Below, one piece after another: positions 11,539 through 58,610 of a DNA stretch of 64,000 nucleotides. Source of the DNA: Heptranchias perlo (Eukaryota); NCBI RefSeq assembly GCF_035084215.1, contig NW_027138407.1, positions 1,302,001 to 1,366,000 on the forward strand, given 5' to 3'. The stretch's first letter is position 1. Every line of letters starts with the position of its first letter. The position numbers were made by a program, and so were the translations under genes. The notes beneath the pieces were generated by a model, which made no database searches, was not told where the DNA came from, and saw nothing but the letters and a program-made list of their open reading frames with translations.

Positions 11539-12643
11539 GATTCCAGTCTGAACTCCAGAAACAAGAGACTGCCTTTCCTGGGCCTGGGATGGGAGACGCG
11601 AAAACAGCAGGATGATCTCATCAGATTTCTGGGATTTCTTTTTCTGTCCATTTGTTTCTCACAAAAGAATCATTTCTTCAACTGGCTATCCGAGAGCGCC
11701 CTCCTGTGGACAGCACACGCATGCAAATGCAAACACAACAGATGCACTCATTGCAACACACACATGGAGACACAGGGAGATTAATACACACAAATACACA
11801 CACACACACATGCATATGCATATGCATCCACGCCAACATAAACCCAGGTACACATAATAGTTAATATCTGTGGAGATTATTGATGTGCATTGAGCTGTAA
11901 ATTGTTAATGTTGACGGATCGAGAACAAGTGATCAGAGAACGCCCTCCTGTCTGTATTATAATCCTCACATACAGCATTCGACACACAGATATAACCACG
12001 GACAGACGGATAGTAACCGCGTGACTGTGCCTCTCACACGAAGAAAATGCAAATGCCAGACATTATCAGACTCACGAAGGGTTTTGATACAGCAAATAAG
12101 GAGAAACTGTTGCCAGAGGCAGAACTGTCGATAACCAGAGGACACAGATTGAAGGCGATCAGCATAATTGACAGAGGCGACATTTTTTTACTCAGCCTGT
12201 TGGAATGACGTGGAATGCATTGCCTGTAAGGGTGGTGGGAGCAATTTCAATAGTAACTTTCAAAAAGGAATTCGATGGATACTGGAAGGGGAAACATTAA
12301 AAAGATTATCGGGAAAGAGCAGGGTCATGGGACGAATTGGATAGCTCTTTCAAAGAGACGGCACAGGCTCGAGGGGTCGAATGGCCTCCCCATGAGCTGT
12401 ACGTGTTATGATACGAGGACACTATATCTGTCGGTGTGTCTACCTATCTATCTATCTATCTATCTATCTATCGATCCATCTGTTGATCTATGTCTGTCTG
12501 TCTCTCTCCGTGTATCTTTCTATCCATCTTTGCATCTATCTATCTATCTTCTTATCAGTTCTCTACCACGACAATTCAGTAAGAAGAGGTAAGAGACCTG
12601 TGGTAGTTTTTGTACGGTCTGACTGCGCCCCTGTCACACTGTG

Positions 12644-13081
12644 GGTATCATCGCACAGAGATACACGGCAGAGTCAGAGACAAGAGCCCCGGTGATACTT
12701 AAAGGAACCGTTTTCTTGGCTCTGTCCAAATTGGCAGAGAAACGGTCTGTCAAATCTGAAGACTTATCTCCCTGCTCCGCGCTATATCTCTTCAGTAAAT
12801 ATTTCGGAGCTTCCCCGGGATCCTGTATGTACCAGAAGAGAGTTGGGGCATTTCCTGTTGTCAAGTAACTGCAGTTCAGTATTACAGTCTGTCCTTCCTG
12901 AACTGTTAATTCAGGCGGAGCCTGAAACACCGAATCTTCGCCACTCGTTCCTGAAACAAAGTACAAAATGTGTCAAAAGTTTGGGAGTAAATATAATCCA
13001 TGAAACATAAACTGACTATTCAAACAAAGACTCACCGTGCAGCACGATCATTATTATCAGTAAGGAATATGGGAAGCACAT
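12644..13081 (-). CDS. TRAV: Family-A V segment A2
   Basis: Leader 13081-13036; V exon 12950-12644; RSS CACAGTG (12643-12637), 23 bp, ACAAAAACT. Confidence 0.92.
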
Positions 13082-14320
13082 GGTGTGTGCTTTAGATTTC
13101 GACAGAAAATAGCAGAATGTTTTCAATGTGTTGACACTTCTCGTCTGATATTAAAGAGTAAACTCAGCTCAGGGGCAGGCTCCACATGCTGGGAAACTGA
13201 GGGGCGTTTCCCAGGGCTGTGACTGACATCAACTGTGCACCAATCACTGTGCACTAATTAACCGATGGCTCTCTTCAAATGCTTTACTTCCATGTCTGTG
13301 TGTCATTCTCTGCCTCACTCTCTTTCTCTCTGTCTCTCTGTCGGTTTTTCTGTCTCCATGTTGCTTTGTCTCTCTTAGTGTCTGCTTAACTCAGCATCTC
13401 TACCTCCATCCCTCCTTTGTGCCTCTCTCTTGTCCCTCGCCTTGGTTCTCTCTCTCTGTCCGTCTCTTTCTCTCTATCTTTCTCTTTCGCACTCTATCTC
13501 ACCTTAAGTTGTAAAGTGAAACAATTCTAAATTAATCTGAATCCCTGATTTCACTCAGTTCCCTGCACAATCCATGTGCTCCATTAACATTTCCAGTCTA
13601 AAGGCCATAAGAGACAAATGTAACAAATTCAGGCATTTATGCCCCATGTTAGGACAGACCAGCAGGTTTCTGGGCGATATAACACCATCAATCTGTGCAA
13701 TCGAAAGTCCTGAATCTGGTGCCTTTCCATCAGGTCACATCTTTTCAAAGCTGTCTCACCTCAAAGGGCGGCCGCGGGGACGTCACAATTAAAAGCCCTG
13801 GGGTTAGGGTAATAGTGATTGACTGAAATCAGCAATTTACTTTTACAAGTTCAACCCCAGTAGCACCAGCGACAGCTTTGCAGAGGTATGTGTACTCATC
13901 ATGTCCCTAATGGGCTTAAGGCTGTAACCATTAATTGGGCACATGGACTATGGAGGGAACCCTGTGATACCAGGTAGGGAGGCAAATTTGGATATTTTTA
14001 AACTTTTAATCTTAATGGCAGAGAAAGAGAGATAAAAAACGACAGAGACAGAGGGCGAGAGAAAGAGAAACAGGGAGGCAGGTTTGGTTATCTGAATTCG
14101 ACCCTCGATTCCAACGGTAGAGTAATGTTACATTTCCCAACATTGATAGCACTGAACTTAACTGGAGAAAACTGCTCAGCTCAATCTGTATTTTCCCATT
14201 CATTTTGTTTACAAACTCTCGAGAATTCAATCCCTGGTATTTTCTGGAGTTGCAGTCCTTTTGACCATTGACCTCTGCCCTGTTTTTGTCTGAGGACCGA
14301 CGGAACCCTTATTCACTCTG

Positions 14321-14630
14321 GGTCTCAGGGCACAGTAATATACTGCGCTGTCTGTGATCGTCAACCCTTTCATGGATCAGGAAAGAGTGCCTTGTGACTG
14401 GTTGAGATTCACGCTGAAGTGTTCGAAGCTCGCAGCTGCCTCGTTATATCAATAAGTATCGTCTCTGAACAGATACTGAGGGGCTCGGTGGGGACCCTGG
14501 CGGTACCATAACAGGTAATAGATTGTCGCTGAACCCGATACAGAGTAATTACAGGTTATTGCTGAATCTTCATCCTCTTCTCATCCGACTCCTTATTCAG
14601 ACTGAGACACCGAGTCTCCGTTACTCATCC
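14321..14630 (-). pseudogene. TRAV: Family-B V pseudogene B3, leader deleted
   Basis: FR1 TAA; heptamer CAGAGTG; 24-bp spacer; intron jumps into A-upstream sequence at ~14744. Confidence 0.85.
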
Positions 14631-15285
14631 CTCTAAATAAATAAAGGATACGGAGCGGGTTAGTCCGATTATCAAGAAGAGAATTATCACCCGGAGATGT
14701 AGAGGGTAAAATGTCTCACGATTGGGGAATATTGTATGAAGGTTAGTTGAGGACTAATTAACTGATGGCTCTCTCCAAACGCTTTACTTTCCTGTCTGTG
14801 TCTCTGTCTGCCATATTTTCTTTCTCTGTGTCTCTCTCTCAGTCTTTCTGTCTCCCTCTCGCTTTTTCTCTCTTTCGGTCTGCATACCTCTGTGTCGCTA
14901 TCCCCATACCGCACTCAGTCTCTGTCTTTAGCCGCCTGTCTCCTTCTCTCTGTCTGTGACACTCTATTTCTCTGTCTTTCTCTGTTTGTCACTCTCCTTA
15001 TCTCCGTCATTTCTGTGCCTCAATCTCTTCCTCTCTTTATCTCCCTCGCTACCTTTCGCACGCTGGTTTTCTCTCTCTTTCTCTCTCTCTCTTTCATTCA
15101 GGTGACAAGTGAAAAATATCTGAATCAGTCTCGATCCCCGGTACCACGGAGTGCTCTCCACAATCAATGAGCTCCATTAATAGCCACAGTCTTATGGCCA
15201 CGAGGGACATGACAAGTTGACATATCTCTTCAAAGCTGCGGGCGGTACCACTGGATTTGAACTTGTAGCGCAATGTTAGCAATCT

Positions 15286-15450
15286 GTTGACCCTTCTCGT
15301 CTGATATTAAAAAGTAAACTCAGATCAAGGGCAGGATTCACTGATTGGGAAACTGAGGGCCGTTTCCCAGTGACCGGATTGGTTGGTCTCTCAGAACTGA
15401 TGCCAACTGTATACCAATCACAGTTAGTTCTGGACGAATTAACTCATAGC
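15286..15450 (-). promoter_or_regulatory. Orphan family-A promoter
   Basis: A promoter motifs present but no leader or V exon. Confidence 0.65.
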
Positions 15451-16363
15451 TCTCGCCCAACGCTTTCCTTCCCTGTCTGTGTCTGTCTGCCTGTCTCATT
15501 TTCGTTCTCTGTGTTTCTCCTACAATCTTCCTGTCTCCCTCTCGCTTTTCTCTCTTTCCGTCTGCTTATCCCTGTGTCTATAACCCTATACCCCGTCCCT
15601 GTCTCTGATTCTGTCTCCGTCTCTGTCGGTCTGTCTCTCATTTTCTGTCTGTGACACTCTGTTTCTCTCTCATTCTCTATTTCTGTCTGTTACTCTCTTT
15701 TTCTCTGTCAGTTTCTGTGCTCTCTCTGACTCAATCTCTTCCCCCTTTTCTCCCTCTCTCTCTTTTTCCCTCTCTCTCTCTCTATTTCTCTCTCTCATTA
15801 AGATGACAAGTGAAAAATATCTGCAACAGTCTCGATCCCCGGTATCACGAATTTCTCTCCACAATGAATCAGTTCTATTAATAGTCACAGTATTAAAGTC
15901 AAGATGGACACGACAAGTAGACATATCTCTTCAAAGCTGGCGGTAGTAGGACTGGATTTGAACTTGTACCAGTAAAGTGCTGATTTCAGCCAGTCACTAT
16001 TTCTAACCCTTCGGATCCCACGAGCTTTGAAGAGTGAAGCCCCTGAGGCCGCCCTTTGAGATGAGACAGTTTCTGAATGATGTGACCCATCGGATCTGCA
16101 CCATATACAGACATTTTATTTTTACAGATAGATCCTGTTATCCATCCCAGAGATTTGCAAGTCGATGCTAACAAGTTGCTGGACATGTTTGCATTTGACC
16201 CTGGATTAAATGGTTGAGAAATATCACATTTCCCAACAATGACAGCACTGACCTTAACTGGAGAAAACCACTTGAATCAGCCTGGGAATAATCATGCGGA
16301 GGTGGAGTTGCGAAAATGTATCAGGATTGGGGAATATTGTTAGAAGGTTCCAATATCACCGAC

Positions 16364-16409
16364 CTGTGATCAGGACAATAACCAGAGTCAGGCAAAGTTC
16401 CACCTGCAT
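16364..16409 (-). pseudogene. Orphan family-B leader O1
   Basis: MQVELCLTLVIVLIT with GTCGGT donor; V exon deleted at junction ~16284. Confidence 0.75.
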
Positions 16410-17324
16410 GATTCCAGTCTGAACTCCAGAAACAAGAAACTGCCTTTAAAGGCCTGAGATTGGAGACGCTAAAACAGCAAAGGGATCACATCAGATGTTC
16501 TGGGATTTCCTTTACTGCCCATTTGCGTCTCTCGAAACAATCATTCCCTGTAGATGGCGTTCAGAGTGCGCCCTCCTGTGGACAGTACAAGCCTCACACG
16601 GTTCATTTTAAAAACAATTACAACAGATATACTCATAAACACACACACACAGACAGAAAGAATAACACACACAGATACAGACACACACACATATGCATAT
16701 GCATATACGCTAACATAAATCCGGATACACATAATGGTTGATATCTGTGGAGATTATTTATGTGCTTTCGGCTGTAATTTCGTAAAGATGTCTGATCTTT
16801 AACAAGTGTGCAGAATACGCCCTCCTGTGTATATTATAACCTCGCATACAGAATTCGACACACAGAACAAATCGCGGACAGACAGTCACTAACTGCTTGA
16901 CTGTGCCTCTCACATGAAGAAAATGCAAAGACCAGCCATAACATGACTCATGGACGGATTTGATGGTTAAATAAGGAGAAATTGTTTCCAATGGTAGAAG
17001 GGTCGGTAACCAGAGGGCACAGATTTAAGGTGATCTGCAAAATTGCCAGAGGCAACATGAGAAAACATACGCAGCGAGTTGTTATGCTCTGGATTGCGCT
17101 GCCTGAAATAGTGGTGGAAGCAGATTCCGAAGCAACTTTCAAAAGAGATTTAGATAAATACTTGAAGGGAAAATATTTAAAGTGCTATGGACAAAGAGGA
17201 GGGTAATGGTACTAATTGGATAGCTCTTTCAAAGAGTCGGCACAGGCACAATGGGCCAAATGGCCTCCACATGTGCTATACCTACTATGATATTATGCCT
17301 GTCGTGCATCAATCGATGGATCGA

Positions 17325-17568
17325 ACTATCTACCTATTTTTCTTTTCATATATTTATCTATCTATCATCTATCTATCCATCTATTTCGCTATCTTTCTAT
17401 ATATCTATCTATCAGTTATCTATCTATCTATCCACCTATCTATCCATCTATCTATCTATTTATCTGCCTATCTATCTATATATCTATCATTCTATCTACC
17501 CAACTACCTATCTATCCATATCTATCCATCTCCTATCTATAGATCTATCTTTCTTTCTATCTACCTTT
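17325..17568. repeat. (TATC)n microsatellite
   Basis: Largest of the TATC tracts lying just 3' of family-A RSSs. Confidence 0.9.
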
Positions 17569-17657
17569 CAGTTCACCTAGTGCGCCAATTCAGTGAGAGG
17601 AGGATAGAGTCTTTTGCTGGTTTTTGTACGGACTGACTGCGCCCCTGCAACAATGTG

Positions 17658-18095
17658 AGGCTCATCGCACAGAGATACACGGCAGAGTCAGGGACAAGAG
17701 CTCCGGTGATATTTAAAGGAACGGTTTTCTTGGCTTTGTCCAAATTAGCAGAGAACCGGTCTGCGAAATCTGAAGACTTATCTCCCTCCCCCGAGCTGTA
17801 TCTCCTCAGCAAGTATCTCGGAGCTTCCCCGGGATACTGGATGTACCAGAAGAGAGTGGGGGTCCTGTTTATTGTCGAGTAACTACAGTTCAGTATTACA
17901 GTCTCTTCTTCCTGAACCGTTAATTCAGGCGGATCCTGGGACACTGAGTCTTCGCCACACGTTCCTGTAACAAAATACAGAATGTGTCAAAAGTCTGGGA
18001 TTAAATATTACCCATGAAACACACACGGATCATTTAAACATAGACTCACCGGGCATCACGACCAGTATTATCAGTAAGGAACCTTGGAAGAACAT
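17658..18095 (-). CDS. TRAV: Family-A V segment A3
   Basis: Leader 18095-18050 MFFQGSLLIILVVMP; V exon 17964-17658; RSS CACATTG, 23 bp, ACAAAAACC. Confidence 0.88.
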
Positions 18096-19241
18096 GATGT
18101 GTGGTTTAGATTTCGACAGAAAAATAGCGGAATGTTTTCAACATGGTGACACTTCTGGCCTGATGTTGAAGAGTAAACTCAGATCAGAGCCATGATTCAC
18201 TTATTGGGAGACTGAGGGGCGTTTCCGAAGAACCAGATTGGCTGGTCTTTCTGAACTGATGCCAGCTGTGCACCAATTGCAGTTAATTGTGGACTAATCA
18301 ATTGATGGCTCGCTCCAAACGTTTTCCTTCGCTGTCTGTGTCTGTCCGTCTGTCTCATTTAAGTTCTTTGCATCTCTCTGTCAACTTTCTGTCTCCCTCT
18401 CGCTTTTTCTCCCTTTCTGTATGCTTACCTCTGTGTCTCTATCCTTATACCCCATTCTAACTCTGTTTCCATCTCGACCCGCCTGTCCCTCTCTCTCCGT
18501 GAAACTCTATTTCTCTATCTTTCCATATTTGTGTCTCGGTCTGCTTCTCTCTTAATCAACGTCAGTTTCTATGCGTCTCTCTGCATCAATCTCTTCCTCT
18601 CTTTCTCGATCTCTCTCTCTCTGTCCCACTCTCTTTCTCTGTCTCTCCCTGTGGCTGTCTCTCTTTCTCTCTCTCACATTAAGGTGACAAGTGAAAAATA
18701 TCTGAATCAGTCTCGATCTCCGGTATCACGGAATTCTCTCCACTGTCAATCAACTCCATTAATAGTCGTAGTCTTAACGTCACGAGGGACATGACAATTA
18801 GAGAAATCCCTTGAAAGATGACGGCGGTACCACTGGATTTGAACTTGTACCAGTAAAGTGCTGATTTCAGTCAGTCATTATTTCAAACCCTTCGGGTCCC
18901 AGGAGCTTTGAAGAGAGACGCCCCTGTGGCCGCTTTGAGATGAGACAGCTTCTGAACGATGTGACCCGACGGATCTGCAACAGATCCAGGACTTTTACTT
19001 GTACAGTTTGATCCTGTTATTCATCCCAGAGATCTGCAAGTTGTTGCTAACACGGAGCTGGAATCGTCTGAATTTGACCCTGGTTTAAGTAGTTGATAAA
19101 TGTCACATTTCCGAACAGTGACAGCACTGACCTCAACTAGAGAAAACCCTTTAATCAGCCTAGGAATAATCATCCAGAGATAGAGATGCGAAAATGTATC
19201 AGGATTGGGGAATATTGTTGGAAGGTTCCAATATCACCGAA

Positions 19242-19287
19242 CTGTGATCAGGACAATAACCAGAGTCAGGCACAGTTCCACCTCCAT
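19242..19287 (-). pseudogene. Orphan family-B leader O2
   Basis: Donor mutated to TTCGGT; V exon deleted. Confidence 0.7.
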
Positions 19288-20260
19288 GATTCCAGTCTGA
19301 ACTCCATAAAAAAGCGACTAACTTTACAGGGCCTGCGATGAGAAAGAGCAAAGGGATATCATCAGATGGTCTGGGATTTCTTTTTCTGCCTATTTGTGTC
19401 TCTCGAAACAATAATTTCCTGCAGATGACGATCAGGGAGCGCCATCCTGCGGACAGCACAAGCCTCACACAGTTCATTGCAAATACAAACACAACAGATA
19501 CACTCACAGAGACACAGCGAGATTAACACACACAAACACAGACACACGCACATATGCAAACAGGCCAACATAATCACAGATGCACATAATGGTTGATACC
19601 TGTGGAAATTATTGACGTGCATTCAGCTGTAAATTGTTAAAAATGACTGATGTTTAACAAGTGATCAGAGAACGCTGTCCTGTGTATATTATAATCATCA
19701 CATACAGCATTCGTCACACAGACACAACCACGGACAGACAGACACTAACGGCTTGACTGTGCCTCACACATGAAGAAAATGCAAAGACCAGCCATTACGT
19801 GACTCATGGTCGGTTTTGATACTGCAAATACAGAGAAATTGTTTCCAATGGTAGAAGGGTCGGTAACCAGAGGACACAGCTTTATGGTGATCCGCAAAAT
19901 TGCCAGAGGCAACATGAGGAAACATTTTTTGCAGCGATTTGTCATGACCTGGAATGCACTGCCATGATATACATGAAGGGGAAATATTTAAAGGGCTTTG
20001 GGGAAAGAGCAGGGTAACGGGATCGATTTGATCGCCTTTTTAAAGAGCCGCCACAGGCACGATGGGCCGAATGGCATCATCCTGTGCTTTACTTACTCTG
20101 ATACCAAGATACTATGATACTGTGTCCGTCGGTGCTCATTATATCTATCTCGCTATCTTTCTGTCTACCTATCAGTTCACCAGCGCACCAATTCAGTGAG
20201 AGGAGATGAGAGACCTTTGCTCGTTTTTGTACGGTCTGACTGCGCCCCTGTAACAGTGTG

Positions 20261-20697
20261 TGCTGCATGGCACAGAGATACACGGCAGAGTCAGGGACAA
20301 GAGCCCCGGCGATACTTAAAGGAACCGTTTTCTTGGCTTTGTCCAAATTAGCAGAGAACCGTTCTGGGAAATCTGAAGACTTGTCTCGCTGTCCCGAGCT
20401 ATATATCTTCAATAAATATCTCGGAGCTTCCCCGGGATATTGGATGTACCAGAAGAAATTTGGTTCAGTGTATGTTGCCAAGTAACTACAGTTCAGTATT
20501 ACGGTCTGTCCTTCCTGAACTCTTAATTCAGGCGGACCCTGGAACACTGAATCTTTGCCACTCGTCCCTGTAACAAATTAAAAATGTGTCAAAAGTCTGA
20601 GAGTAAATGCAATCCATGAAACACACACTGACCATTTAAACATAGACTCACCGGGCAGCACCATCATTATTATCAGTAAGGAACATGGGGAGCACAT
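20261..20697 (-). CDS. TRAV: Family-A V segment A4
   Basis: Leader 20697-20652; V exon 20567-20261; RSS CACACTG, 23 bp, ACAAAAACG. Confidence 0.9.
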
Positions 20698-21846
20698 GGT
20701 GTGTGGTTTAGAGTTCGACAGAAAGTAGCGGAATATTTGCAATACGTTGACAATTCAAGTCTGATATTAAAGAGTAAACTCAGATCAGGGGCAGAATTCA
20801 CTTATTGGAAAACTAAGGGGCGTTTCCCAGGGACCGGATTGGCTGGTCTCTCAGAACTGATGCCAGCTAAGCATCAATCACAGTTAGTTGTGGACTAATT
20901 AACTGATGGCTCTCTCATCACGCTTTCCTTCTCTGTCCGTGTCTGCCTGTCTCATTTTCGTTCCTTGTGTCTCTCTGTCAATCGTTTTGTCTCCCTCTCG
21001 CTTTTTCTCTCTTTCTGTCTACTTACCTCTATGTCTCTAACCCTTTACCCCGACATCTGTCCCTGTCTCTGTCCGTCTGTCTCTCTCTTCATGTCTGTGA
21101 CACTCTATTTCTCTGTCCTTCTCTATTTCTGTCTGTTACTCTATTTTTCTCTGTCAGTTCTATGCCTCTCTCTGCCTCAATCTCTTCCTTTCTTTCTCGC
21201 TTTCTCTCTCTGTCCCACTCTCTTTCCCTGTCTCTCTCTGGACCTCCCTCTTTCTTTCTCTCCCTCTCTCTCACGCTCTCATTAAGGTGACATGTGAATA
21301 ATATCTGAATCAGTCTCGATCCCCGGTACCACAGAGTTCCCTCCACAATCAATGAGCTCCATTAATAGTCACAGTCTTAAGGTGACGAGGGACATGACAA
21401 GTAGACATATCTCTTGATAGCTGCCGGTGGTAGAACTGGTTTTGAACCCGTACCAGTAAAGTGCTGATTTCAGTCAGTCACTATTTCTCACCCTTTGCAT
21501 CCCAGGAGCTCTGAAGAGTGAGGCCCTGAGGCCGCACTTTGAGTTGAGACAGCTTCTGAACGAAGTGACCCGACGGACCTGCACCAGATCCAGGACATTT
21601 ACTTGGACAGATTGATCCTGTTATTCATCCCAGAGATCTACAAGTCGGTGCTAACAGGGGGCTGGAGATGTCTGAATTTGACCCTGGATTAAGTGGGTGA
21701 GAAATGTCACATTTCCCAACACTGACAGCACTGAGCGTAACTGGAGAAAACCGTTTGAATCAGCCTGGGAATAATCATCCGGAGATGGAGATGGGAAAAT
21801 ATATCAGGATTGGGGAAAATTGTTGGAAGTTTCCAATATCACCGAC

Positions 21847-21892
21847 CTGTGAACAGGACAATAAACAGAGTCGGGCAGAGTTTCACCTCCAT
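21847..21892 (-). pseudogene. Orphan family-B leader O3
   Basis: MEVKLCPTLFIVLFT with GTCGGT donor; V exon deleted. Confidence 0.75.
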
Positions 21893-23006
21893 GATTCCAG
21901 TCTGAACTCCAGAAACAAGAGCTTGCCTTTGCCGGGCCTGGGATGGGAGACGCTGAAAGAGCAAAAGGATCTCATCAGATGTTCTGGGATTTCTTTATCT
22001 GCCCATTTGTGTCTCTCGAAACAATCATTCCATGGAGATGGCGTTCAGAGTGCGCCCTCCTGTGGACAGCCTAAGCCTCACACAGTTCATTGCTGAAACA
22101 ATCACAACAGATTTACTCATAAACACACACAACGGGACAGAGAGAATAACACACACAAGTACAGACACACACACATATGCAAATGCATACACGCCAACAT
22201 AAACCCAGATTCACCTAATGATTGATATCTGTGGAGATTATTGATGTGCATTCAGCTCTAAATTGCAAACAATGACTGATCTTTAACAAGTGATCAGCCC
22301 TCCTGTATACAATATAATACTCGCATACAGCGTTAGATACACAGATACAACCACGGACAGACAGACATTAAACGCTTGACTGTGCCTCTCATATGAAGAA
22401 AATGCAAAGACCAGCCATGACATGACCCATGAACGGTTTTGATAGTGTAAATAAGTAAATTGTTTCCAATGGTAGATGGGTCGGTAACCGGAGGACACAG
22501 ATTTAAGGTGATCTGCAAAATTGCCAGAGGCGACATGACGAAACATTTTTTTCCCAGCGAGTTGTTATGATTTGGAATACACTGCCTGAAAGGGTGGTAG
22601 AAGCGGATTCAATGGTAAATTTCAAAAGTGAATTCGATAAATACTTGAATGGAAAACGTTTAAAGTGCTATGGGGAAAGCGCATGATAATGGGATTGATT
22701 GGATTGCTCTTTGAAAGAGACGGCACAGGCTCGAGGGCCCGAATGGCCTGCGCCTGTGCTGTACCTGCTGTGATACTATGTCTGTCGTGCATCGATCGAT
22801 GGATCTATCTATCTATTTATCTATCTATCCATCTATCTATCTGCCTATCTACCCATCCATCCACCTCCTATCTATCTATCATCTGTCTATCTATCTATCT
22901 ATCGATCTATCTATCTATCAGTTCACGAGCGCACCAATTCATTGAGCGGAGGTGAGACACTTTTGCTGGTTTTTGTACAGTCTGACTGCGCCCCTGTAAC
23001 AGTGTG

Positions 23007-23444
23007 TGCTCCATGGCACAGAGATACACGGCAGAGTCAGTGATAAAGGCCCCGGTGATACTTAAAGGAACCGTTTTTTTGGCTTTGTCCAAATTAGCAG
23101 AGAACCGGTCTGCAAAATCTGAAGATTTATCTCCCTGCTCTGCGCTATATCTCTTCAGTAAATATCTCGGAGCATCCCCTGGATTCTGGATGTACCAGAA
23201 GAGAGCTGAGGGAGCGTATGCTGCCGAGTAACTGCAGTTCAGTATTGCAGTCTCTCCTTCCTCAACCGTTAATTCAGGCGGATTCTGTAACACTAAATCT
23301 TCACCACTCGTTCCTGTAACAAAATACAGAATGTGTCAAAAGTCTGGGAGTAAACATAATCCATGAAACACACACTGACCATTTGCACATAGACTCACCG
23401 GGCAGCACGATCACTATTATCAGTAAGAAACATGCGGAGCACAT
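23007..23444 (-). CDS. TRAV: Family-A V segment A5
   Basis: Leader 23444-23399; V exon 23313-23007; RSS CACACTG, 23 bp, ACAAAAACC. Confidence 0.9.
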
Positions 23445-24611
23445 GGTGTGTGGTTTAGAGTTCGACAGAAAATAGCGGAATGTTTTCAATATGTTGACCC
23501 TTCTTATCTGATATTAAAGAGTAAACTCAGATCAGGGCCAGGATTCACTTATTGGAAAACTAAGGGGCGTTTCCCAGGGACCGGATTGGCTGGTCTCTCA
23601 GAACTGATGCCATCTGTGCACCAATCACAGCTAGTTGTGGACTAATTAACTGATGGCATTCTCCTGACTCTTTCTTTCCCTGTCTCATTTTCGTTCTCTG
23701 TGTCTCTCTGTCAATCTTCCCGTCTCGGTCTCGCTTTTTCTCCCTTTTTGTCTGCTCACCTCTGTGTCTCTGTCCCCATACCCCACTCTATCTCTGCCTC
23801 AGTCTTTATCCGCCTGCCTCTCTGTCTGTCGGTGACATTCTATTTCTCTGTCTTTCTCCGTCTGTCACTCTCTTTATCGTCGCCTATGCCTCTCTCTGCC
23901 TCAATCTCTTCCTCTCTTTATCTCCTTCCCTACCATTCGCACTCTCTCTCTCTGTCTCCCTCTGCTTCTTTCTCTCTCTCAATCATTCTCTCTCTCATTC
24001 TCTCTCTCATTCAGGTGACAAGTGAAAAAGATCTGAATCAGTCTCGACCCCCGGTATCACGGAGTTCTCTCCATAATCAATTAGCTCCATTAATAGTCAC
24101 AGTCTTAAGGTCACGAGGGACACAGACCTCTTCAATGCCGCGGGCGGCACCATTGGATCTGAACTTGTACCAGTAAAGTGCTGATTTCAGTCAATCACTA
24201 TTCCTAACCCTTCTGATCCCAGGAGCTTTGAAGAGTGAAGTCTCTGAGGCCGCCCTTTGAGATGAGACAGCATCTGAACGATGTGACCCGACGGATCTGC
24301 ACCAGATACAGGACTTTTACTTGTACAGATTGTTCCAATTATCCATCCCAGAGATCTGCAAGTCGGTGCTAACAGGGGGCTGGAAATGTCTGAATTTCAG
24401 ATGGATTAAGTGGGTGAGAAATGTCACATTTCCCAACACTGACAGCACTGACCGTAAGAAGAGAAAACCGCTCGGAACAGGTTGTATTTTCGCATTCATC
24501 TCCTGTACAAATACTCTGGGATTCAATCCGTGTTATTTTCCTCGATCCCACCCTTAACGCCGATCTGTGCCCTGTTTTTGTATGAGTCCCGAGGGACCCT
24601 TATTCACTGTG

Positions 24612-34932: not shown

Positions 34933-34964
<32 letters not shown>

Positions 34965-46409: not shown

Positions 46410-46892
46410 GGTCTCAGGACACAGTAATACACTGCGTTGTCTGTGATCTTAGAGCCTTTCATGGATCAGTAAAAAGTTCCTTGTGTCCAGTTGAGATTCC
46501 CGCTGAAATGATCAAAGCCCGGAGCCGCCTCGTTATTCCCATAACTATCGCCTCTGAACAGATACTGAGGGGCTCGATGAGGATACTGGCGGTACCAGAA
46601 CAGGTAATAGATTGTAGCTGAACCCGATACAGAGGAACTACAGGTCATTGCTGAATCTGCATCCTCTTCTGATCCGATTCTTTATTCAGATTGGGACACC
46701 GAAACTCCGTTGCTCATCTCTACAAATAAATAGCGGATACACAGCGGGTTAGTCGGATTAACAGGAAGAGAATAATCACCCAGAGATAATAGGGCAAAAT
46801 GTATCAGGATTGGGAAATATTGTCGGAAGGTTCCAATATCACCAACCTGTGAACAAAACAATAACCAGAGTCAGGCAGAGTTTCACCTCCAT
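46410..46892 (-). pseudogene. TRAV: Family-B V pseudogene B8
   Basis: V exon 46719-46410; FR1 TAA plus FR3 TGA; heptamer CAGAGTA. Confidence 0.87.
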
Positions 46893-47798
46893 AATTCCAG
46901 CCTGAACGCCAGAAACAAGAGTCTGCCTTTACAGGGCCTGGGATGGCAGACGCTAAAACAGCAAAACGATCTCATCAGATGTTCTGGGATTACTTTTTCT
47001 GCCCATCTGTGTCACTCTGAATAATCGTTTCCTGCAGATTGTGATCAGAGCGCGCCCTCCCGTGGACAGCACAATCCTCACACAGTTCATTGGAAATACA
47101 AATACAGCAGATGTACTCGTAAACATACACAGAGACACAGAGAGATTAACAAACACAAATACAGAGACACACATATGCATACAAGCTAACATGTACACAT
47201 GTACACATAATAGTTCATATCTGTGGAGATAATTAATGTACCTTCAGCTGAAAGTCGTTCAATATAACTGATCATTAACAAGCGATCAGACCACGCCCTC
47301 CTTTGTATATTATAATCATCATATACAGCATTCGACACACAGACACAATCTCAGGCAGACAGACACGAACAGCTTGGTTCTGCCCCTCACGTCGAGAAAA
47401 GGCAAAGACCAGCCATTGCATGACTCACGAAGAGTTTTGATAGTGTATATAAGGAGAAACTGATCCAGCGGCAGAAGGTTGAGTCACCAGATGACACAGA
47501 TTTAAGGTGATTTGCAAAATTGCCAGAGGCCAGCCATTTGTTATGATCTGGAAGGCAGTGACTAATTGGATAGCACTTATAAAGAGTCGGCACAGGCACG
47601 ATGAGCCGAATGGCCTCCTCATGTGCTGTGCCTATTGTGATACCAAGATACTATGATACTATGTCTGTCGGTGCTCTATATATCTATCTATCTTTATTTC
47701 TATCTACATATCAGTCCACTAGCGCACCAATTCAGTCAGAGCAGGTGAGAGACGTTGTTGGTTTTTGTACAGTATAACTGCGCCACTGTAACAGTGTG

Positions 47799-48236
47799 GG
47801 CTCCATGGCACAGATGTACACAGCAGAGTCAGAGATAAGAGCCCCGGTAATATTTAAATGAACCGTTTTTTTGGCTTTGTCCAAATTAGCAGAGAACCGG
47901 TCTGCGAAATCAGAAGACTTATCTCCCTCCTCCGCACGATATCTCCTCAGCAAATATCTCGGAGCATCCCCGGGACACTGGATGTACCAGAAGAGAGTTG
48001 GAGCACTGACTGTGGTCGAGTAACTACAGTTCAGTATTACGGTCTGTCCTTGCTGAACCGTTAATTCAGGCGGATCCTGGAACACGGAGTCTTTGCCACT
48101 CGTTCCTGTAACAAAATACAGAATGTGTCAAAAGTCTGGGAGTAAATATAATCCATGAAACACACACTGACCATTTGAACATAGACTCACCGGGCAGCAC
48201 GATCATTATTATCAGTAAGGAACATGGGGAGCACAT
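47799..48236 (-). CDS. TRAV: Family-A V segment A12
   Basis: Leader 48236-48191; V exon 48105-47799; RSS CACACTG, 23 bp, ACAAAAACC. Confidence 0.9.
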
Positions 48237-49431: not shown

Positions 49432-49915
49432 GGTCTCAGGGCACAGTAATACACGGCGCTGTCTGTGATCTTCAAGCGTTTCACGGATAAGTGAAAAGTG
49501 CCGTCTTTCCGGTTGAGATTCGCTCTGAAGTGTTGAAAGCCTGAAGCCGTGTCGTTATACCCATAACTATCGGCTCTGAGCACATACTGAGGGACTCGGT
49601 GGGGAGACTGGCGGTACCAGAATAGGCAATAGTTTGTAGCTGAACCCGATACAGAGTAACTGCAGGTTATTGCTGAATCTGCATCCTCTTCTGATTCAAC
49701 TCCTTGTTCTGACTGGGACACCGAGTCTCCGTTACACATCTCTATAAATAAACAGTGGAGACAAGGCGGGTTATACGGAGGGACAGACAGTGAATAATCC
49801 CCTGGAGAAGGAGATTGGACATTTTATGAGAACTGAAGAATATTGTAGGAAGTTTCCAATATCACCGACCTGTGATCAGGACAATAACCAGAGTCAGGCA
49901 AAGTTTCATGTCCAT
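49432..49915 (-). CDS. TRAV: Family-B V segment B9, open reading frame
   Basis: Leader 49915-49870; V exon 49741-49432; RSS CACAGTG, 23 bp, ACAAAAACA. Confidence 0.86.
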
Positions 49916-50729
49916 GGTATCAGGCTGAACTCCAGAAACAAGATACTGAGATATCACTGCCTTTACCGGGCCCGGCATGGGAGATACTAAAACAGAGTGG
50001 GGATTTCATCAGATGTTCTGGGATTTCTTCTCCCCGCCCATTTGTATTTTTCTGAATAGTCACTTCCTGTAAAAAGGATCATGATGTTTCACAAGTGATC
50101 AGAGAGCGCCCTCCTGTGAAGAGCACAAGCCTCACATAGAACATTGGAAATACTCACAGATACAGAGAGACACGAACACAAACACACATAATACGCACAC
50201 ACAGATCAACAAACACACACCTACACACACAGACAACACACACACGAATGTAGATAAACAGCACATGAACACAGATTAACACACACACAGATAAACACGC
50301 AGATGCACAAACACATTCATACACCACACACAAACACAGATAAACACACACACAGGCACAGAGAAACACAAACAGACACAAATAGTTCAACACCTTCAGA
50401 CCCACACACACCACACCATCTGGTCACGAGGTTAAGTGACAAACTTCACACGCTCGGTGCCTCTCTCAGCGCGGAGTCAGAGGTTTTGCATTTGAGTCCC
50501 ATTTTCCTGACTCGGAGACCGCAGTCAGCTTGGTGGGAGACGAGGTGAACTCAATCCAGCGGATGCGCCCCCTGTGGACATTAACCAAAGTGCATCAATA
50601 CCATTCTTCACTGAGCAATGAGCGAAGCGAGCAACTTGCACAGGATTTCACTCGGACTCCAGCTTACATTTCTGAATGAATGGGAAATGACTGCCGCAAC
50701 ATGCAGTACTAATGCTGCAATCAGCAACA

Positions 50730-52778: not shown

Positions 52779-53229
52779 GGGAATACAAGTCTAGTCTATG
52801 CAACATGTCTTCATAATTTAAACCTTTTAAACCCGGTGTCATTAGCAGTCTAGATATTTTCCTGTGGGGTTCCGTGCCTGCAATATCTCCTTGGGAATTA
52901 ATCTATTCCTTGGGGAATGAACTTCGACCAATCCGGGTCTAAACTCACCCATGTTAAACCCAGGCCTTTCCCGATTGACACGTTGTGGCGAGGTGATAGC
53001 AACACATTATACACTGAGAAACGCAGATCTGTGCGTGTTTGTAGTGGGAATGGAAGGAAATTAGGTGCAGAGATAGTGAGAGGGAGAGAGAGAGAGAGAG
53101 AGAATGAGGTGAATAGAGGGTGGGAAAGAGATTGGAAATCAAAAGAGTTTTTAATATTCTGTGTAAGACTCTAATCACATCCCTCCTGGAGTACGCTGAA
53201 TTGCGATATGTTTCTCCTTATCCTGGGTG

Positions 53230-54355
53230 AGCTGGTGTTACCGTTGAAACGAAAGAGAGGCTGCCCGAGTACTGGGCAATTGGGACCAGTTCTGGGGCAT
53301 GGGGGTCGTGTTCAAACCGGACGGATTGCATCTGAACCTGGCTAGGAATATAGAAAGATATGGGAGGCAGAGGGCAGTGACTAACGGATGCTTTTTCTGA
53401 CTGGACAGAAGTATGCAGTGGGGTCCCCCAGGGTTCGTTATTAGGACCATTGCTTTTCCTATTATATATAAATGACCTGGACTTGCGTATGATACAAAAC
53501 TTAGCAAAGTGCTAAATTGTGAGGGTGAAAGTAGTGGACTTCAGGAAGACATGGACAGACTGCTGAAATGGGGATACCCGTGGCAGATGCAATTTAATGC
53601 AGATAAGTGTGAACTGATGCATTTTGTGGGAACAGCATGGAGAGGCAGCATAATCTTAATGATACAATTTTGAGGGGGTGGAAGAGCAGAGGGACCTGGG
53701 GTTCTGATTCAGAAATCTTTGAAGGTGATAGAGGAAGTTGATAAGCCGGTTAAGAAAGCGTTTGAGATACGTGGCACTGTGAATAGGGGCATTGAATATA
53801 AAAACAAGGAAGTCATGCTAAACCTTTACAAATCACTGGTTAGGCCTCAGATGGAGTATTGTGCACAATTCTGAGCACCACACTTTAGAAAGGATGTCAA
53901 TGCCTTGGAGGAGGTAACGAGGAGGTTCAACAGGATGATACCAGGAATGAGAGACTTCAGTTATGTGGAGATGTCGGAGAAGCTGGGATTGTTCTTCTTA
54001 GAGCAGAGAAGATTAAGGGGAGACCTAACAAATGTAATTCAAAATGATATGGGGTTTTGATGGAGCAAATAGGGAGAAATTGTTTTCTTTGGCAAGTGGG
54101 TCGGCAACCAGAGATCATAGATTTAAAATAATTTCCAGAAGAAGTACAGGAGAAATGAGGATATATTTTTTCACACAGAAGGTTGAGATCCAGAACGCAC
54201 TACCTGAAAGGGTCTTGGGAGCAGATTCCATAGGAACTGTCAAAAGACAATTGGACACTTACTTGAAGAGGACTAATTTGAAGCATTATGGGGAAAAATC
54301 TTGGGTTTGGGACTAAATTGGGAAGCTCTTTCAAAGAGCCGGCGTAGGCACGATG
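53230..54355 (+). mobile_element. Decayed CR1 LINE: ORF1 esterase-like piece plus ORF2 3' half
   Basis: FKPDGLHLN; then LYKSLVRPQMEYCAQF, EKLGLFFLEQRRLRGDL. Confidence 0.85.
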
Positions 54356-54367
54356 TATGATGTATGA

Positions 54368-54485
54368 CGGACTGCAGCGGTTCAAGAAGGCGGCTCACCA
54401 CCACCTTCTCGAGGGCAATTAGGGATGGGCAATAAATGCCGGCCTTGTCAGGGACGCCCACATCCCGTGAACGAATAAAAAAAAA
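54368..54485 (+). mobile_element. 3' tail of the same LINE family as 30248
   Basis: CACCACCTTCTC..GGGCAATTAGGGATGGGCAATAAATGCC..GAATAAAAAAAA. Confidence 0.8.
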
Positions 54486-54867
54486 TTCTATGATTGTATG
54501 ACTGAAAGAACAGCCGCCAATAGTGGGGTGATTGAAATCAGGGATGCGCAAGAGGCAAAAGTAGGAAGAGCACAGATATCTCGGATGTTTGTAGGGCTGG
54601 AAGAGGTTACATAGATAGGACTCTGCTCTGAGACCAACCACCAGTGCTGAAGGATCCTTTAAGCTTCGAGTCCGACCTCTATATTACATTTGATTACAGC
54701 ATTGGAATTGATGTTTCATTTCTTGATCGATGTGCTATGTCCAGTCCATGTCTTGAAGTAACATTTCTTTCACCAAGCTGATCCACACATGGCTCCCTTG
54801 AGTGTGGTAGAGGCATTCTTGGTCTGCAAGTCGAAAACTGCACCGCATTTTGTGCTTTGATCATTTG

Positions 54868-54881
54868 CTGCCCCCTGGTGG
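54868..54881 (-). promoter_or_regulatory. CTCF-like motif
   Basis: Minus strand reads CCACCAGGGGGCAG. Confidence 0.6.
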
Positions 54882-55254
54882 GCACAATTTGCAATTACAC
54901 TGTTTGTCAATCGGAGCATGAAAATGTCCAATTTTACGATTGGTGCATCAAGAAGGAAAAAGCATTTATACGCCATCTGGTCACGTCGTCTGAATGTCTC
55001 AAAGCGATTCAACTACATGGGAACATAGAAACAGAAGTAGACAGGCAACCTATTCCACCATTCAATTCGATCATGGCTGATCTGTATCTTAACTCCACCT
55101 ACCCACCTTGGTTGAGTATCCCTTGATACCCTTGCCCAACAAAAGTCTATCGATCTTAGTTCTGACATTTTCAATTGATCTAGCCTCAACATATATTCAT
55201 AGGTGTCACTTAACGAAAATAAATGCCCCAAACACAAACAAAAGATGCCGCTAT

Positions 55255-56400
55255 TGCAACCAGTATGGCTGCCAGCTATGCCTGCCTTTTTGTGGGACAC
55301 GTGGAACATTCCTTGTTCCAGTCCTACTCAGTTCCCCTCACTTGCCTCTTTTTGCGGTATATTGATGACGGTCTCGGTGCCGCTTCCTGCTCTCGCCCTG
55401 AACTGGAAAATGTCATCAACTTTGCTTCCAATTTCCACCCTTCCTTCCCTTTCACATAGTCCATCTCCGACTCTTCCTTTCCCTTCCTCGTCTTTTCGGT
55501 GTCCATTTCTAGGGATAGAATATCAACCAATATTTAATATAAACCCACCGACTCCATCAGTTACCTTGATTGCACTTCCTTCCAACCTGTTTCATGTCTA
55601 TTCCCTTCTCCCAGTTCATCCGTCTCTGTCGCATCTGTTCTGACGATGACACCTTCCACACCAGTGCTTCCGATAAGTCTTCCTTTTTCTTCAGCCGAGG
55701 ATTCCCCTCCACTGTAATTGCCAAGGCCCTGGACCGTGGCGGTGCTATTGCCCGCACTCCTGCCCTCACCCCTTTCCCTCTCTCCCAGTAACACGATAGG
55801 GCCCCCCTTGACCTCAACTTCCACCCCATCAGCCTCCACATTCAACGGATCATCCTCTGCCATTTCCACCACTTCCATCGCGATGCCACAATCAAACACA
55901 CATTGCGCCCCCTCCCCTTTTCTTCCATGGCACCCTAGTACACTTTATCACACCCAACACCCACTTTCCTTCCCACGGCACCTTACTGTGCGAGCGCAGG
56001 AGATGCAACACCTGCCCTTTCAGCTCCTCCCTTCCAACCGTCCAGGGCCACAAACACTCCTTTCAGGTGAAACAGTGATTTACTTGTACTTCTTTAAATT
56101 TATAATACAGTATTCGCTGCTCACGATGCGGTCTCCTACAAACTGGGGAGACCAAACGCAGATTGGGCAATTGCTTTGTTGAACACCTCCGCTCAGTCCG
56201 CCAGCGTGACCCTGACCTTTGCCATTTTAAATCTCCGTCCAAATCCCACTCTGACCTCTCTGTCCTCGGCCTCCTAGACTGTTCCAATGAAGCTCAACGG
56301 AAGCTTGAGGAGCAGCACCTCATCTTTGGATTAGGCACATTACAGCCTTGTGGATTCAACATTGATTTCAATTACTTCAGATGATAACCGCTGCTCCATT
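55255..56400 (+). mobile_element. Penelope-like retroelement (RT plus GIY-YIG endonuclease), decayed
   Basis: YACLFVG..RYIDD; IPFSQFIRLCRICS; CSRCGLLQTGETKRRL..EHLRSV; LGTLQPCGFN. Confidence 0.85.
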
Positions 56401-56774
56401 TTTTTCCGGACAGCAGGTGCTGGTAATGGTTCTGCTGTTGCCATTTACAGCTCCTCTAGACCCATCCTTTGCTTCTTCACTTGTCCCATTGCCACCCTCT
56501 TTTCCTTGCACCATCATCCCCTTTGTCATTGAATTACTCCTGCACTCCACCCTATCAGGGATCTTCCCTTTTGTTCTTTCCTCCCCTTCCCTTCGTCCCT
56601 GCCTTTGTGTGGCTCTGGACTTGCTTACAGACTGTTAAATCTTTAACTTCCTCCAGTTCTGACGAAATGTCAACGACCTGTAAGGCTAACTCTGTTTCTT
56701 TCTGAATAATTCCTAGATTTTCTGTTGTTATATCAGATTTCCAACATCCGCGGTATTTTGCTTTGTGACTGTGT

Positions 56775-57210
56775 ACAGTGAAACAGGCAGACACCAACAG
56801 AAGGGGATAGATAAAGGTGCGACTGAGTATGGTGATACAGGGTTGCACTAAAAGAAGGATATCGATAATGGTCTGACCGAGTACAAAGAGTTTCAGCGAG
56901 AAACCAACAGAGCGAGATAGATAAAGATGAGACTGAGTGCAGTGAGTGATGCAGGGAGACACCAACAGAGGGAAATAGATAAAGGTGCCTCTGAACACAG
57001 TGAGTGATGCAGAGAGACACCATTAGAGCGAGGGAGATAAAGGTGACACTGAGTTCAGTGTTCGAGAGAGACACCACCAGAGGGAGATTGATAAACGTGA
57101 GTCTGAGTACAGTGATACAGAAAGACACCAACAGACGGAAATATATAAAGGTGAGACTGAGAATCTTGAGTGATGTAAAGAGAAACCAATCGAGGGAGAT
57201 AGATAAAACA
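56775..57210. repeat. ~55-60-bp purine-rich minisatellite
   Basis: Unit approximately AGTGATACAGAGAGACACCAACAGAGGGAGATAGATAAAGGTGAGACTGAGTAC. Confidence 0.8.
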
Positions 57211-57547
57211 GTGATAAACAATGAGTTGGAGCGGTCCGGTGTGAGCTCCAACAGAGACGGTGCTGGTGTCAGTGATAAATAAAATGTGGGAACTACCCGG
57301 TATGAGCTCAGAGAAAGTGTGAGCTGGTTTCATTGAAACAGTGACATACACTGAGTGGGAGCGGCCGGCGTGGGTTTACTCCGGGACAGAGCTTGTTTCG
57401 TTAGTTCGACAGGAAGAAGCCTTCTGAGTTTGACATCAAGCGAAAGTTTGGCTCCTTGTTAATTTTCCTGAATATAATATCCGTGTCCTGGGAGTAACTC
57501 GACCTCTCTGTACAATTCTTTCAGTCTACTTTTCATCTGTTCCGATA

Positions 57548-57881
57548 ATGCTCCGGATTTACAGAGTTTCCCTCCTGATTTATACTCTGATCTGCACGGA
57601 TGTCAACGGTGAAGATGAGGTGATACAGCTCCCTCGGGCAGCGGTTGTTAGTGAAGAGGGAATCGTATCCATGAACTGCTCCGCTACCGTTGCATTTACC
57701 TTACTGCACTGGTACAGACAGCACCCCAATCAAACATTCCAACATCTGGTAATGGCAACAAGTGGGGCGGTTAAAAACGAGAGGATCTCTGCTTCAATCG
57801 GGGGTGGCAATAAATTCAGTACCCTGACTGTGAGGGATGCCAGCGTGACAGATACCGCGACCTATTTCTGCGCCGTGAGGC
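57548..57881 (+). CDS. TRAV: Single-exon (intronless leader+V) TCR V segment
   Basis: MLRIYRVSLLIYTLICTDVNG contiguous with EDEVIQ..MNC..WYRQ..DTATYFCAVR. Confidence 0.85.
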
Positions 57882-57920
57882 CACAGTGGAACAAACGTAC
57901 AGACAGTCCGTACAGAAACC
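57882..57920 (+). other. 23-RSS
   Basis: CACAGTG, 23 bp, ACAGAAACC. Confidence 0.95.
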
Positions 57921-58597
57921 TGCACTGAGGGGAGCGCCGCTCTGCTGTGTTTTGAGCAACGGGATTGGAAGGGGTCCGTGTTTCATATTCGGAGGGTGGA
58001 GGGAATAAGAACAGAACATTTGGAAATAGAGAAGAGAGAGATTTAAATAAAGGCAGAAATAAAGAGAGTTGGAAACGCAGACAGAGGAAAACAAAGAGAA
58101 ACTACTAAAGAAAGAACGAGAGCGAGAAAGTGAAAGAAAGCATTGGAATAATAATCGGACTGCAGACGACAGCAAATTCCGAATGGAGAAAAAGAGCAAT
58201 AAAATAATGCCAGAAATAAAGAGAGTTGGAAACCGGTAGAGGTAAAGAATGAGAAAGCAGTCTGGACAGAATGTGTGTGAGAAAGAGATACATATAAAGC
58301 ATTGTAATCATAAGAGGAGTGTAGAGGGAACGAGAATAGCAATACAGGAAAGAAGGGAAAGAAGAAAGGAAGGGAAGGAAGTCAGCAACACAATGGGAAA
58401 GGCTAAGAGAAAGCCATGAAGAAAGAGGTCCTTAAAAAAACTAAGATACTCTTTCCTTTAAAATCACTATTCTCCGTATTTACACAGTTTAATTGTCTCC
58501 AACACTTCTCCCAATAACCTGCCGCTGGAAATTGCCCCATCGATAAACTCACCTATATTTTCCCCTTCATCCAGACAGTGTAACGTTTTCAGAGTCA

Positions 58598-58610
58598 CCG
58601 CCAGAGGGCA
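58598..58610 (+). promoter_or_regulatory. CTCF-like motif
   Basis: CCGCCAGAGGGCA. Confidence 0.6.

What the first reader, a model, noticed from the sequence alone, without database searches (positions are those of the whole stretch)
11696..58610. CTCF-like motifs track V orientation and diverge at the strand switch
Seen: minus-strand CCACAGGAGGGCGC ~160 bp upstream of B leaders (11696, 16568, 22052, 28703, variants elsewhere), CCACAGGGGGCGC (42184, 50565) and CCACCAGGGGGCAG (54868). Plus-strand motifs lie beside plus-strand Vs (297, 58598), though a weaker minus-strand partial match sits at ~58630. Established: mammalian Tcra and Igh V regions carry oriented CTCF sites involved in looping and RAG scanning. 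Inference: comparable architecture in a shark-like locus. The site survives where the B exon is deleted, so dead B loci may persist as CTCF carriers for A genes.
Basis: partly seen in the sequence, partly recalled or inferred. Interest (0 to 1): 0.7.

Follow-up and report, generated by a model that had tools for sequence, protein, structure and literature searches.

The report
CTCF sites ride shark TCR V-genes
In a shark-type T-cell-receptor gene array, motifs matching the genome-folding protein CTCF were copied and flipped along with the variable genes, and one survives, unusually well conserved, in dozens of dead gene relics, so these motifs likely help working genes recombine in either direction, though binding is untested.

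Summary
The window lies in a shark-type TCR alpha/delta V region; D-J-C are on the minus strand about 0.5 Mb away. All quoted motifs are at the stated places. Across the V region 112 strong CTCF matches (21 independent origins) contrast with 6 outside and about 5 for shuffled matrices; 88 of 106 share the nearest V's strand, including 22 of 26 beside inverted Vs. They do not point toward J (43 vs 33 outside one tandem array), unlike mouse Igh/Tcra. The 'divergent pair at the switch' belongs to a triplicated cassette and recurs where no switch exists. The B motif has 8 substitutions against 22-30 expected in 39 exon-less copies outside the window, but no deficit among the window's 10 copies; it misses the ZF6 base and a weaker twin is equally conserved, so CTCF as its binder is uncertain. 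One RNA-type contig shows an inverted V joined to Jalpha. The scan noted V-linked CTCF motifs in other shark genomes; my searches found no paper.

The parts
294..312 (+). CTCF-type motif, 14.4 bits, 1 mismatch to published consensus; paralog inverted at contig 1465943
8524..8542 (-). decayed copy of the B-promoter motif (0.4 bits) in a truncated B promoter
9361..48109 (-). 12 intact family-A V exons with 23-RSS (9361, 12646, 17660, 20263, 23009, 26256, 29652, 33947, 36582, 39348, 43530, 47801); 9 of 12 have a same-strand site >=12 bits within 1.3 kb downstream
11694..11712 (-). B-promoter motif (16.9 bits), B exon 11057-11358 broken
16566..16584 (-). B-promoter motif (15.1), leader kept, exon deleted
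19437..19455 (-). B-promoter motif variant (12.8), exon deleted
22050..22068 (-). B-promoter motif (15.1), exon deleted
24614..25302 (-). intact B V gene with single weaker motif at 25284-25302 (12.1 bits)
28701..28719 (-). B-promoter motif (16.8), B exon 28114-28419 broken
28946..28964 (-). distal tandem twin of the B motif about 240 bp further upstream (11.2 bits; also at 33408, 35941, 38638)
33167..33185 (-). B-promoter motif with the consensus A at the ZF6 position (17.5), B exon broken
35703..35721 (-). B-promoter motif variant (12.1), exon deleted
38387..38405 (-). damaged B-promoter motif (6.9), exon deleted
40983..42200 (-). intact B gene; promoter motif 41653 (10.5) and weak upstream motif 42182-42200 (5.0, background level)
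47050..47068 (-). B-promoter motif variant (13.9), B exon 46412-46726 broken
49434..50581 (-). intact B gene; promoter motif 50104 (10.6) and weak upstream motif 50563-50581 (5.0)
52901..64000 (+). plus-strand V cassette, part of a segmental duplicate (about 81-91% identity) also at contig 1.13-1.17 Mb (same strand) and 1.43-1.46 Mb (inverted)
54866..54884 (-). strongest CTCF motif of the window (22.9 bits, 0 mismatches); family of 4, opposite to the V it travels with
57581..57880 (+). intact V exon with 23-RSS, inverted relative to Jalpha
58595..58613 (+). CTCF-type motif (17.2 bits) 715 bp behind V 57581; core unchanged in 3 of 3 paralogs (0 vs 3.1 expected changes)
58629..58647 (-). partial match, 5.0 bits, background level
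61476..61796 (+). intact V exon with 23-RSS, inverted relative to Jalpha
63768..63786 (+). weakened copy (10.4 bits) of the site that precedes the first Jalpha (contig 767865, 19.5 bits)

Best explanation
The window is part of a shark-type TCR alpha/delta V region in which CTCF-type motifs are built into V-gene cassettes and were duplicated and inverted with them, and these motifs likely bind CTCF and act as local loop-extrusion stops rather than as an array aimed at J. Shown: enrichment, V-co-orientation, lack of polarity toward J outside the A array, a substitution deficit in the B motif of exon-less relics, two strong V-facing sites between Cdelta and the first Jalpha, and one inversional V-Jalpha join. 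Inferred: cohesin loops from the V-facing Cdelta-Jalpha sites pause at the V-linked sites and bring Vs of either orientation near the J recombination centre for diffusional capture, as described for mouse Igk (Cer/Sis). In the A/B array one B gene lost its exon, and the remaining promoter, with its motif about 0.8-1.1 kb behind each A gene, was amplified with A and probably kept because the motif serves the A gene. The divergent pair at 54868/58598 is a passenger of a duplicated cassette.
For: 112 sites >=15 bits in 786 kb of V region (21 origins) vs 6 in 477 kb of flanking contig, 3 in 200 kb of random genome, and 4.6 sites / 3.2 origins (max 17 / 8) for 25 column-shuffled matrices. Independent published consensus, <=1 mismatch: 72 vs 9, shuffled mean 5.1; 48 of 63 co-oriented. 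Site families occur on both strands at fixed offsets from their V family. Eleven other site families pooled: 51 core changes vs 85.6 expected. B motif in 39 array copies: 8 vs 22-30 expected, and the two best-conserved 14-mers of 597 windows are the motif and its twin; deficit persists after thinning to 31 copies (21 vs 38.9); motif CpG 3 changes vs 9-16 at four of five flank CpGs. 40 of 42 exact 17-mers genome-wide lie in this locus, so not a dispersed repeat. 31 of 35 array A genes have a same-strand site within 1.3 kb downstream. 7 of 8 sites in the J/C stretch face V, incl. 767865 and 773303. 35 of 125 intact Vs are inverted and one contig joins inverted V 865997 to Jalpha 740686. Skate TADs follow a CTCF orientation code (PMC10115646 passages).
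Against: No binding data exist in the runs listed. The B motif breaks the ZF6 triplet NNA (PMC8629902 passages) and has 2 mismatches to the published consensus; its distal twin (0 of 49 copies >=12 bits) is as conserved; substitutions in the array are not milder for CTCF than random (P=0.79; all 50 copies P=0.19), and conservation does not follow the matrix's information content. The window's 10 copies show no deficit in number (12 vs 13-16), only milder changes (P=0.02, one of several tests). Per-origin co-orientation is only marginal. The pooled test of other families is biased because they were picked by score, and 3 of 11 show no deficit. The inversional join is one contig of one sample whose RNA label is a guess. 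Six Vs on another contig have no linked sites.
Confidence: 0.58

Rival explanations
1. The canonical sites are CTCF sites, but the B motif (most of the reader's series) is bound by another factor; dead B promoters are kept as promoter/enhancer-like accessibility elements behind A genes.
For: ZF6 mismatch; low-scoring twin equally conserved and invariant core CACAGGAGGGCG shared by all variants; other promoter blocks are nearly as conserved, e.g. an ETS-like block with 7 changes (ETS label recalled); substitution direction not CTCF-specific in the array.
Against: The conserved footprint is about 17 bp and ends where the CTCF core ends; the variable base at position 4 is the unspecified N of the ZF7 triplet NCA; two separate changes restore the consensus A and window changes are CTCF-mild.
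Confidence: 0.22
2. Neutral passengers: the motifs are old promoter remnants that track V orientation only because DNA was duplicated in blocks, and the relic copies have no present role.
For: Most exon-less copies share one deletion junction; 9 of 13 window sites are one element; no deficit in the window's copies and 2 of 10 destroyed; orientation tracking is expected from block inversion alone.
Against: Strong deficit in 39 array copies, robust to thinning; 21 independent origins against about 3 by chance. Gene conversion would not single out two 14-mers.
Confidence: 0.12
3. A mouse Igh/Tcrb-type polarised array: V sites face J and steer linear RAG scanning.
For: In the window 10 of 13 sites and in the A array 32 of 36 strong sites face J; J/C-side sites face V; seven family-5 Vs have a site 20-29 bp behind the nonamer, like RSS-associated VH sites (PMC6746451).
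Against: Outside the array 43 face J and 33 away; all four intact RSS-adjacent family-5 Vs are inverted with sites facing away, yet one is joined to Jalpha; linear scanning uses only deletional RSSs (PMC11153149 abstract).
Confidence: 0.08

Closest known systems
Mouse Tcra/Tcrd V-region CTCF sites, TEA site and EACBE (PMC5859386 section 20; PMC7515734 passages)
   Same: Orthologous locus type; many V-region sites; a V-facing site just before the first Jalpha (767865) and sites about 12 kb behind Calpha (622248, 623357).
   Different: Mouse sites face J in 129 of 144 cases; here orientation follows each V and is near even toward/away from J outside one array; Vs lie on both strands; mouse sites are ChIP-proven.
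Mouse Igk with Cer/Sis (PMC11153149 abstract; PMC12820099 abstract and discussion part 1)
   Same: Vs in both orientations, V-region sites in both orientations, two V-facing sites between V and J, inversional joining.
   Different: In Igk site orientation does not correlate with V orientation; here it does. No J-facing Sis-like site >=12 bits between Cdelta and Jalpha. D-J-Cdelta lies between the V region and these sites.
Igh upstream and RSS-associated VH CTCF sites (PMC6746451 abstract, results part 1, discussion)
   Same: Family-specific sites at fixed offsets, co-oriented with V, more conserved than flanks; shark family 5 has sites about 24 bp behind the nonamer.
   Different: The window's sites are 0.8-1.1 kb behind A genes and derive from a neighbour's promoter; in mouse non-functional members typically lack the site, here it is kept in relics lacking the exon.

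Membership tests
TCR alpha/delta locus of cartilaginous fish | V exons with 23-RSS, Ddelta, Jdelta, Cdelta, long Jalpha array, Calpha in one translocon; NAR-TCR and IgH-like segments within | tested here: met
   223 V hits, D 804591, J 793-804 kb, C 792 kb, J 644-767 kb, C 635 kb, IgH-like C1 exons at 1.06-1.11 Mb; alpha/delta labels rest on this order and on recall
CTCF-binding element | Match to the ZF3-7 core, canonical sites (54868, 297, 58598, other families) | tested here: met
   22.9, 14.4, 17.2 bits; 0, 1, 2 mismatches to the published consensus
CTCF-binding element | Match to the ZF3-7 core, B motif CCACAGGAGGGCGC | tested here: inconclusive
   15-17 bits (p about 1e-6) but ZF6 base broken, 2 mismatches; twin <=11 bits
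CTCF-binding element | Match to the core, 42184/50565/58630 | tested here: not met
   5.0 bits, 3 mismatches, no significant conservation (2 vs 3.7)
CTCF-binding element | Core conserved above flanks | tested here: met
   B array 8 vs 22-30; other families 51 vs 85.6; not met for the window's 10 B copies alone
CTCF-binding element | Conservation pattern specific to the CTCF matrix | tested here: inconclusive
   no correlation with information content; substitution direction P=0.19 overall, 0.79 array, 0.02 window
CTCF-binding element | CTCF and cohesin occupancy, loop anchoring | not testable with these tools
   no ChIP, ATAC or Hi-C run among the 7 listed
Polarised V-region CBE array (Igh, Tcrb, mostly Tcra) | V-region sites nearly all face D-J-C | tested here: not met
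   43 toward vs 33 away outside the A array
Polarised V-region CBE array (Igh, Tcrb, mostly Tcra) | J/C-side sites face V | tested here: met
   7 of 8 sites >=12 bits in contig 652-815 kb
RSS-associated VH-type CBE | Core about 17-19 bp (or 48 bp) behind the nonamer | tested here: not met
   no window V has one; outside the window 7 family-5 Vs have a core 20-29 bp behind
Igk-type diffusional system (Cer/Sis) | Inverted Vs are used | tested here: inconclusive
   35 of 125 intact Vs inverted; one contig shows an inversional join
Igk-type diffusional system (Cer/Sis) | CBE platform blocks scanning and captures V-region impediments | not testable with these tools
   candidate V-facing sites 773303 and 767865 only by sequence
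Transposon-borne CTCF motif | Dispersed copies across the genome | tested here: not met
   40 of 42 exact 17-mers and 40 of 40 scored DNA matches lie in this locus; 62 candidates, 40 scored

The most novel reading that the evidence does not exclude
Sharks keep some 45 dead V-gene promoters as selected CTCF docking modules behind working V genes, and assemble TCR alpha by orientation-free, Igk-like capture onto V-facing sites between Cdelta and Jalpha, a site that was also copied behind all six embedded NAR-TCR delta miniclusters; CTCF-guided diffusional joining would then be the ancestral mode of V-J assembly.
Probability: 0.28. Interest if true: 0.72.

Novelty: new variant of a known kind. 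Interest (0 to 1): 0.5.

Why it matters
CTCF control of V(D)J recombination is worked out only in mammals. A shark TCR alpha/delta locus with V-linked sites in both orientations, used inverted Vs and a TEA/Cer-like pair would date that control to the first jawed vertebrates and suggest which mode (scanning or diffusion) came first. Selection on a motif inside exon-less V relics gives a concrete reason why V pseudogenes persist, and names exact sites for ChIP and binding tests.

Tried and rejected
Divergence tied to the strand switch: rejected, the pair recurs in a paralog without a switch. Dispersed repeat origin of the B motif: rejected. The plus-strand companion motif 22 bp from the B motif: not conserved (52 vs 44.5 expected). 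42184 family: no signal. 57071 site: one unit of a local tandem repeat. Upstream (ZF9-11) module, recalled spacing: 2 of 21 families, no enrichment shown. Information-content correlation and substitution-direction tests: inconclusive (the 'distal' row for the window subset repeats the proximal site and was ignored). Five of 23 families could not be tested for conservation (fewer than 3 flank-defined copies), one overlapping family was dropped from the pool. Leader ATG count used a faulty pattern and was not used. Sequencing runs: no RNA holder on record, no chromatin data; laying four runs on 46300-50700 showed V exon cover and a leader-exon splice in X5 but no V-J end in the shown rows. Other receptor loci sampled (200 kb): no V-linked sites at six Vs of contig C1079; C383 repeats part of this locus. 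Three wanted papers (Ott 2021 review, Shih 2012, Deiss 2019) were not held; no supplements were read, and they may describe V orientation in shark loci.
Full report
Locus. The window is G000:C240:1302001-1366000. It holds 27 V exons or relics: 12 intact family-A genes, 3 intact and 6 broken family-B genes on the minus strand, and a plus-strand group at 57581-62778. I fetched contig 452-1715 kb. It holds 223 V hits at 817-1600 kb (147 minus, 76 plus), a D at 804591, J at 793-804 kb, a C at 792 kb, a long J array at 644-767 kb and a C at 635 kb, all minus, plus IgH-like C exons and NAR-TCR-like cassettes. This is the order of a cartilaginous-fish TCR alpha/delta locus (labels from order and recall; PMC12227049 passages). 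Minus therefore means toward J; 35 of 125 intact Vs are inverted.

The observation. All quoted motifs are where stated. I scored them with a CTCF matrix recalled from memory and, independently, with the consensus printed in PMC6746451. The window has 13 sites >=12 bits against 2.3 expected, but 9 are one element and only 5 origins exist. 54868 is a perfect match; 297 and 58598 have 1 and 2 mismatches; the B motif has 2, one at the ZF6 base (triplet scheme from PMC8629902 passages). 42184, 50565 and 58630 are at background.

Locus-wide test. The V region has 112 sites >=15 bits in 786 kb from 21 origins; flanks have 6 in 477 kb, random genome 3 in 200 kb, 25 shuffled matrices 4.6 sites from 3.2 origins. 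The published consensus gives 72 vs 9 (shuffled mean 5.1, max 16). Of 106 sites within 3 kb of a V, 88 share its strand: 22 of 26 near plus Vs, 66 of 80 near minus Vs, 56 of 70 outside the A array. Per origin the count is 15 vs 6 (p=0.08), 22 vs 14 at 12 bits, 9 vs 1 at 18 bits, and one of these families is of post-Cdelta rather than V origin. Families sit at fixed offsets: about 420 bp before the exon, 20-29 bp behind the nonamer, 700-1100 bp behind the exon, and appear on both strands with their V. Outside the array 43 face J and 33 face away, whereas 129 of 144 mouse Tcra/d sites face J (PMC5859386 section 20). So tracking is real and is what block duplication and inversion of V-plus-site cassettes produce.

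The strand switch. Window 52.9-64 kb is part of a long duplicate found also at 1.13-1.17 Mb (same strand) and 1.43-1.46 Mb (inverted). Both 54868 and 58598 are in all three copies. At 1.13 Mb the upstream neighbours are plus-strand IgH-like segments, so there is no switch. The 54868 family always points away from the V it accompanies, and a fourth copy lies at 1087222; the two copies at 1087 and 1131 kb lie about 25 kb behind IgH-like C exons and face them. The divergence is a cassette property.

The B relics. Broken B loci carry the motif twice, about 240 bp apart; intact B genes carry one weaker copy. In a tandem array at 1.49-1.59 Mb, 35 A genes alternate with B promoters lacking any exon; 31 of 35 have a same-strand site within 1.3 kb downstream. 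Most exon-less copies share one deletion junction, so survival alone proves nothing. I collected 59 copies by flank only, set aside 7 intact genes and 2 divergent loci, and counted parsimony changes on flank trees for 50. Core changes: 21 vs 41-47 expected in all 50, 8 vs 22-30 in the 39 array copies (P<=0.0006), 21 vs 38.9 after thinning to 31, but 12 vs 13-16 in the window's 10. Of 597 sliding 14-mers in the array alignment the two lowest are the motif and its twin. This supports selection on the motif in relics. It does not prove CTCF: the twin never reaches 12 bits, other promoter blocks are nearly as conserved, and neither information content nor substitution direction gives a clear CTCF signature. 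Eleven other families pooled show 51 vs 85.6 changes, with a bias from picking by score.

J side and usage. Seven of 8 sites in 652-815 kb face V, the strongest at 773303 and at 767865, 650 bp before the first Jalpha; two more flank a point about 12 kb behind Calpha, positions that recall the mouse TEA site and EACBE. A copy of the 773303 site lies 9-16 kb behind each of six further Cdelta-like exons, facing back (one copy at 11 bits). A contig of run X5 (RNA by guess, one sample) covers plus-strand V 865997 with 2 differences and continues into minus-strand Jalpha 740686; the only close paralog is also plus, the nearest minus relatives are about 77-81% identical. That is an inversional join by a V whose RSS-adjacent site faces away from J. 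Linear scanning uses only deletional RSSs, while Igk uses both via Cer/Sis and diffusion (PMC11153149 abstract; PMC12820099). Skate TADs obey a CTCF orientation code (PMC10115646 passages).

Mechanism and novelty. Most likely (0.58) the motifs are CTCF sites that act locally as extrusion stops and are captured by V-facing sites at the J end, allowing both orientations; binding, looping and effect on usage are inferred. Searches for CTCF at shark or fish receptor loci listed no such paper; PMC12227049, PMC13433984 have no CTCF mention, and PMC5931798 (passages) lacked an assembled locus; subscription papers and supplements were not seen. The scan's own notes report V-linked CTCF motifs in several other shark and skate genomes (unchecked, not counted as support). 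What is particular here is the selected motif in exon-less relics, the refutation of the switch idea, the repeated post-Cdelta site and the inversional join. Verdict: a new variant of a known kind, interest 0.5.

Noticed in passing
G000:C240 1160-1166k, 1203-1210k, 1288-1295k, 1386-1393k, 1431-1437k, 1470-1477k: Six NAR-TCR-delta-like miniclusters with their own J and Cdelta-like exon, three on each strand, each followed 9-16 kb downstream by a copy of the post-Cdelta CTCF-type site facing back.
   Followed up: partly
L067:4004-4302 and L094:8600-8680: RNA-type contig joining an inverted V to a Jalpha, i.e. an inversional rearrangement.
   Followed up: yes
G000:C240 852368, 865997, 887854, 910556, 932309, 975799, 1040666: V family with a CTCF-type core 20-29 bp behind the RSS nonamer; all four intact members are inverted; the window's member (60289) has lost both RSS and site.
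   Followed up: partly
G000:C240 1051-1106k: Two IgH-like V plus C1-exon clusters embedded in the V region, each followed about 25 kb later by a 54868-family site facing it, a possible 3' boundary.
   Followed up: no
G000:C240 1570883, 1577753, 1582416, 1587089: Four inverted extra copies of the B motif about 480 bp from a normal copy, forming divergent pairs upstream of A genes.
   Followed up: no
window 56790-57220 and 5689-5765: Local tandem repeat with CTCF-like units (up to 12.9 bits here, 17.2 at contig 828398), recurring upstream of several Vs.
   Followed up: no
window 9361-48109: Nearly all A genes use the heptamer CACACTG with a perfect nonamer, while all broken B genes share a CAG- heptamer that cannot be cut by the usual rule (recalled) and a stop in framework 1, pointing to one inactivation before amplification.
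   Followed up: no
G000:C240 681-723k: A 42 kb gap in the Jalpha array containing three V-facing motifs (693743, 701458, 702607).
   Followed up: no
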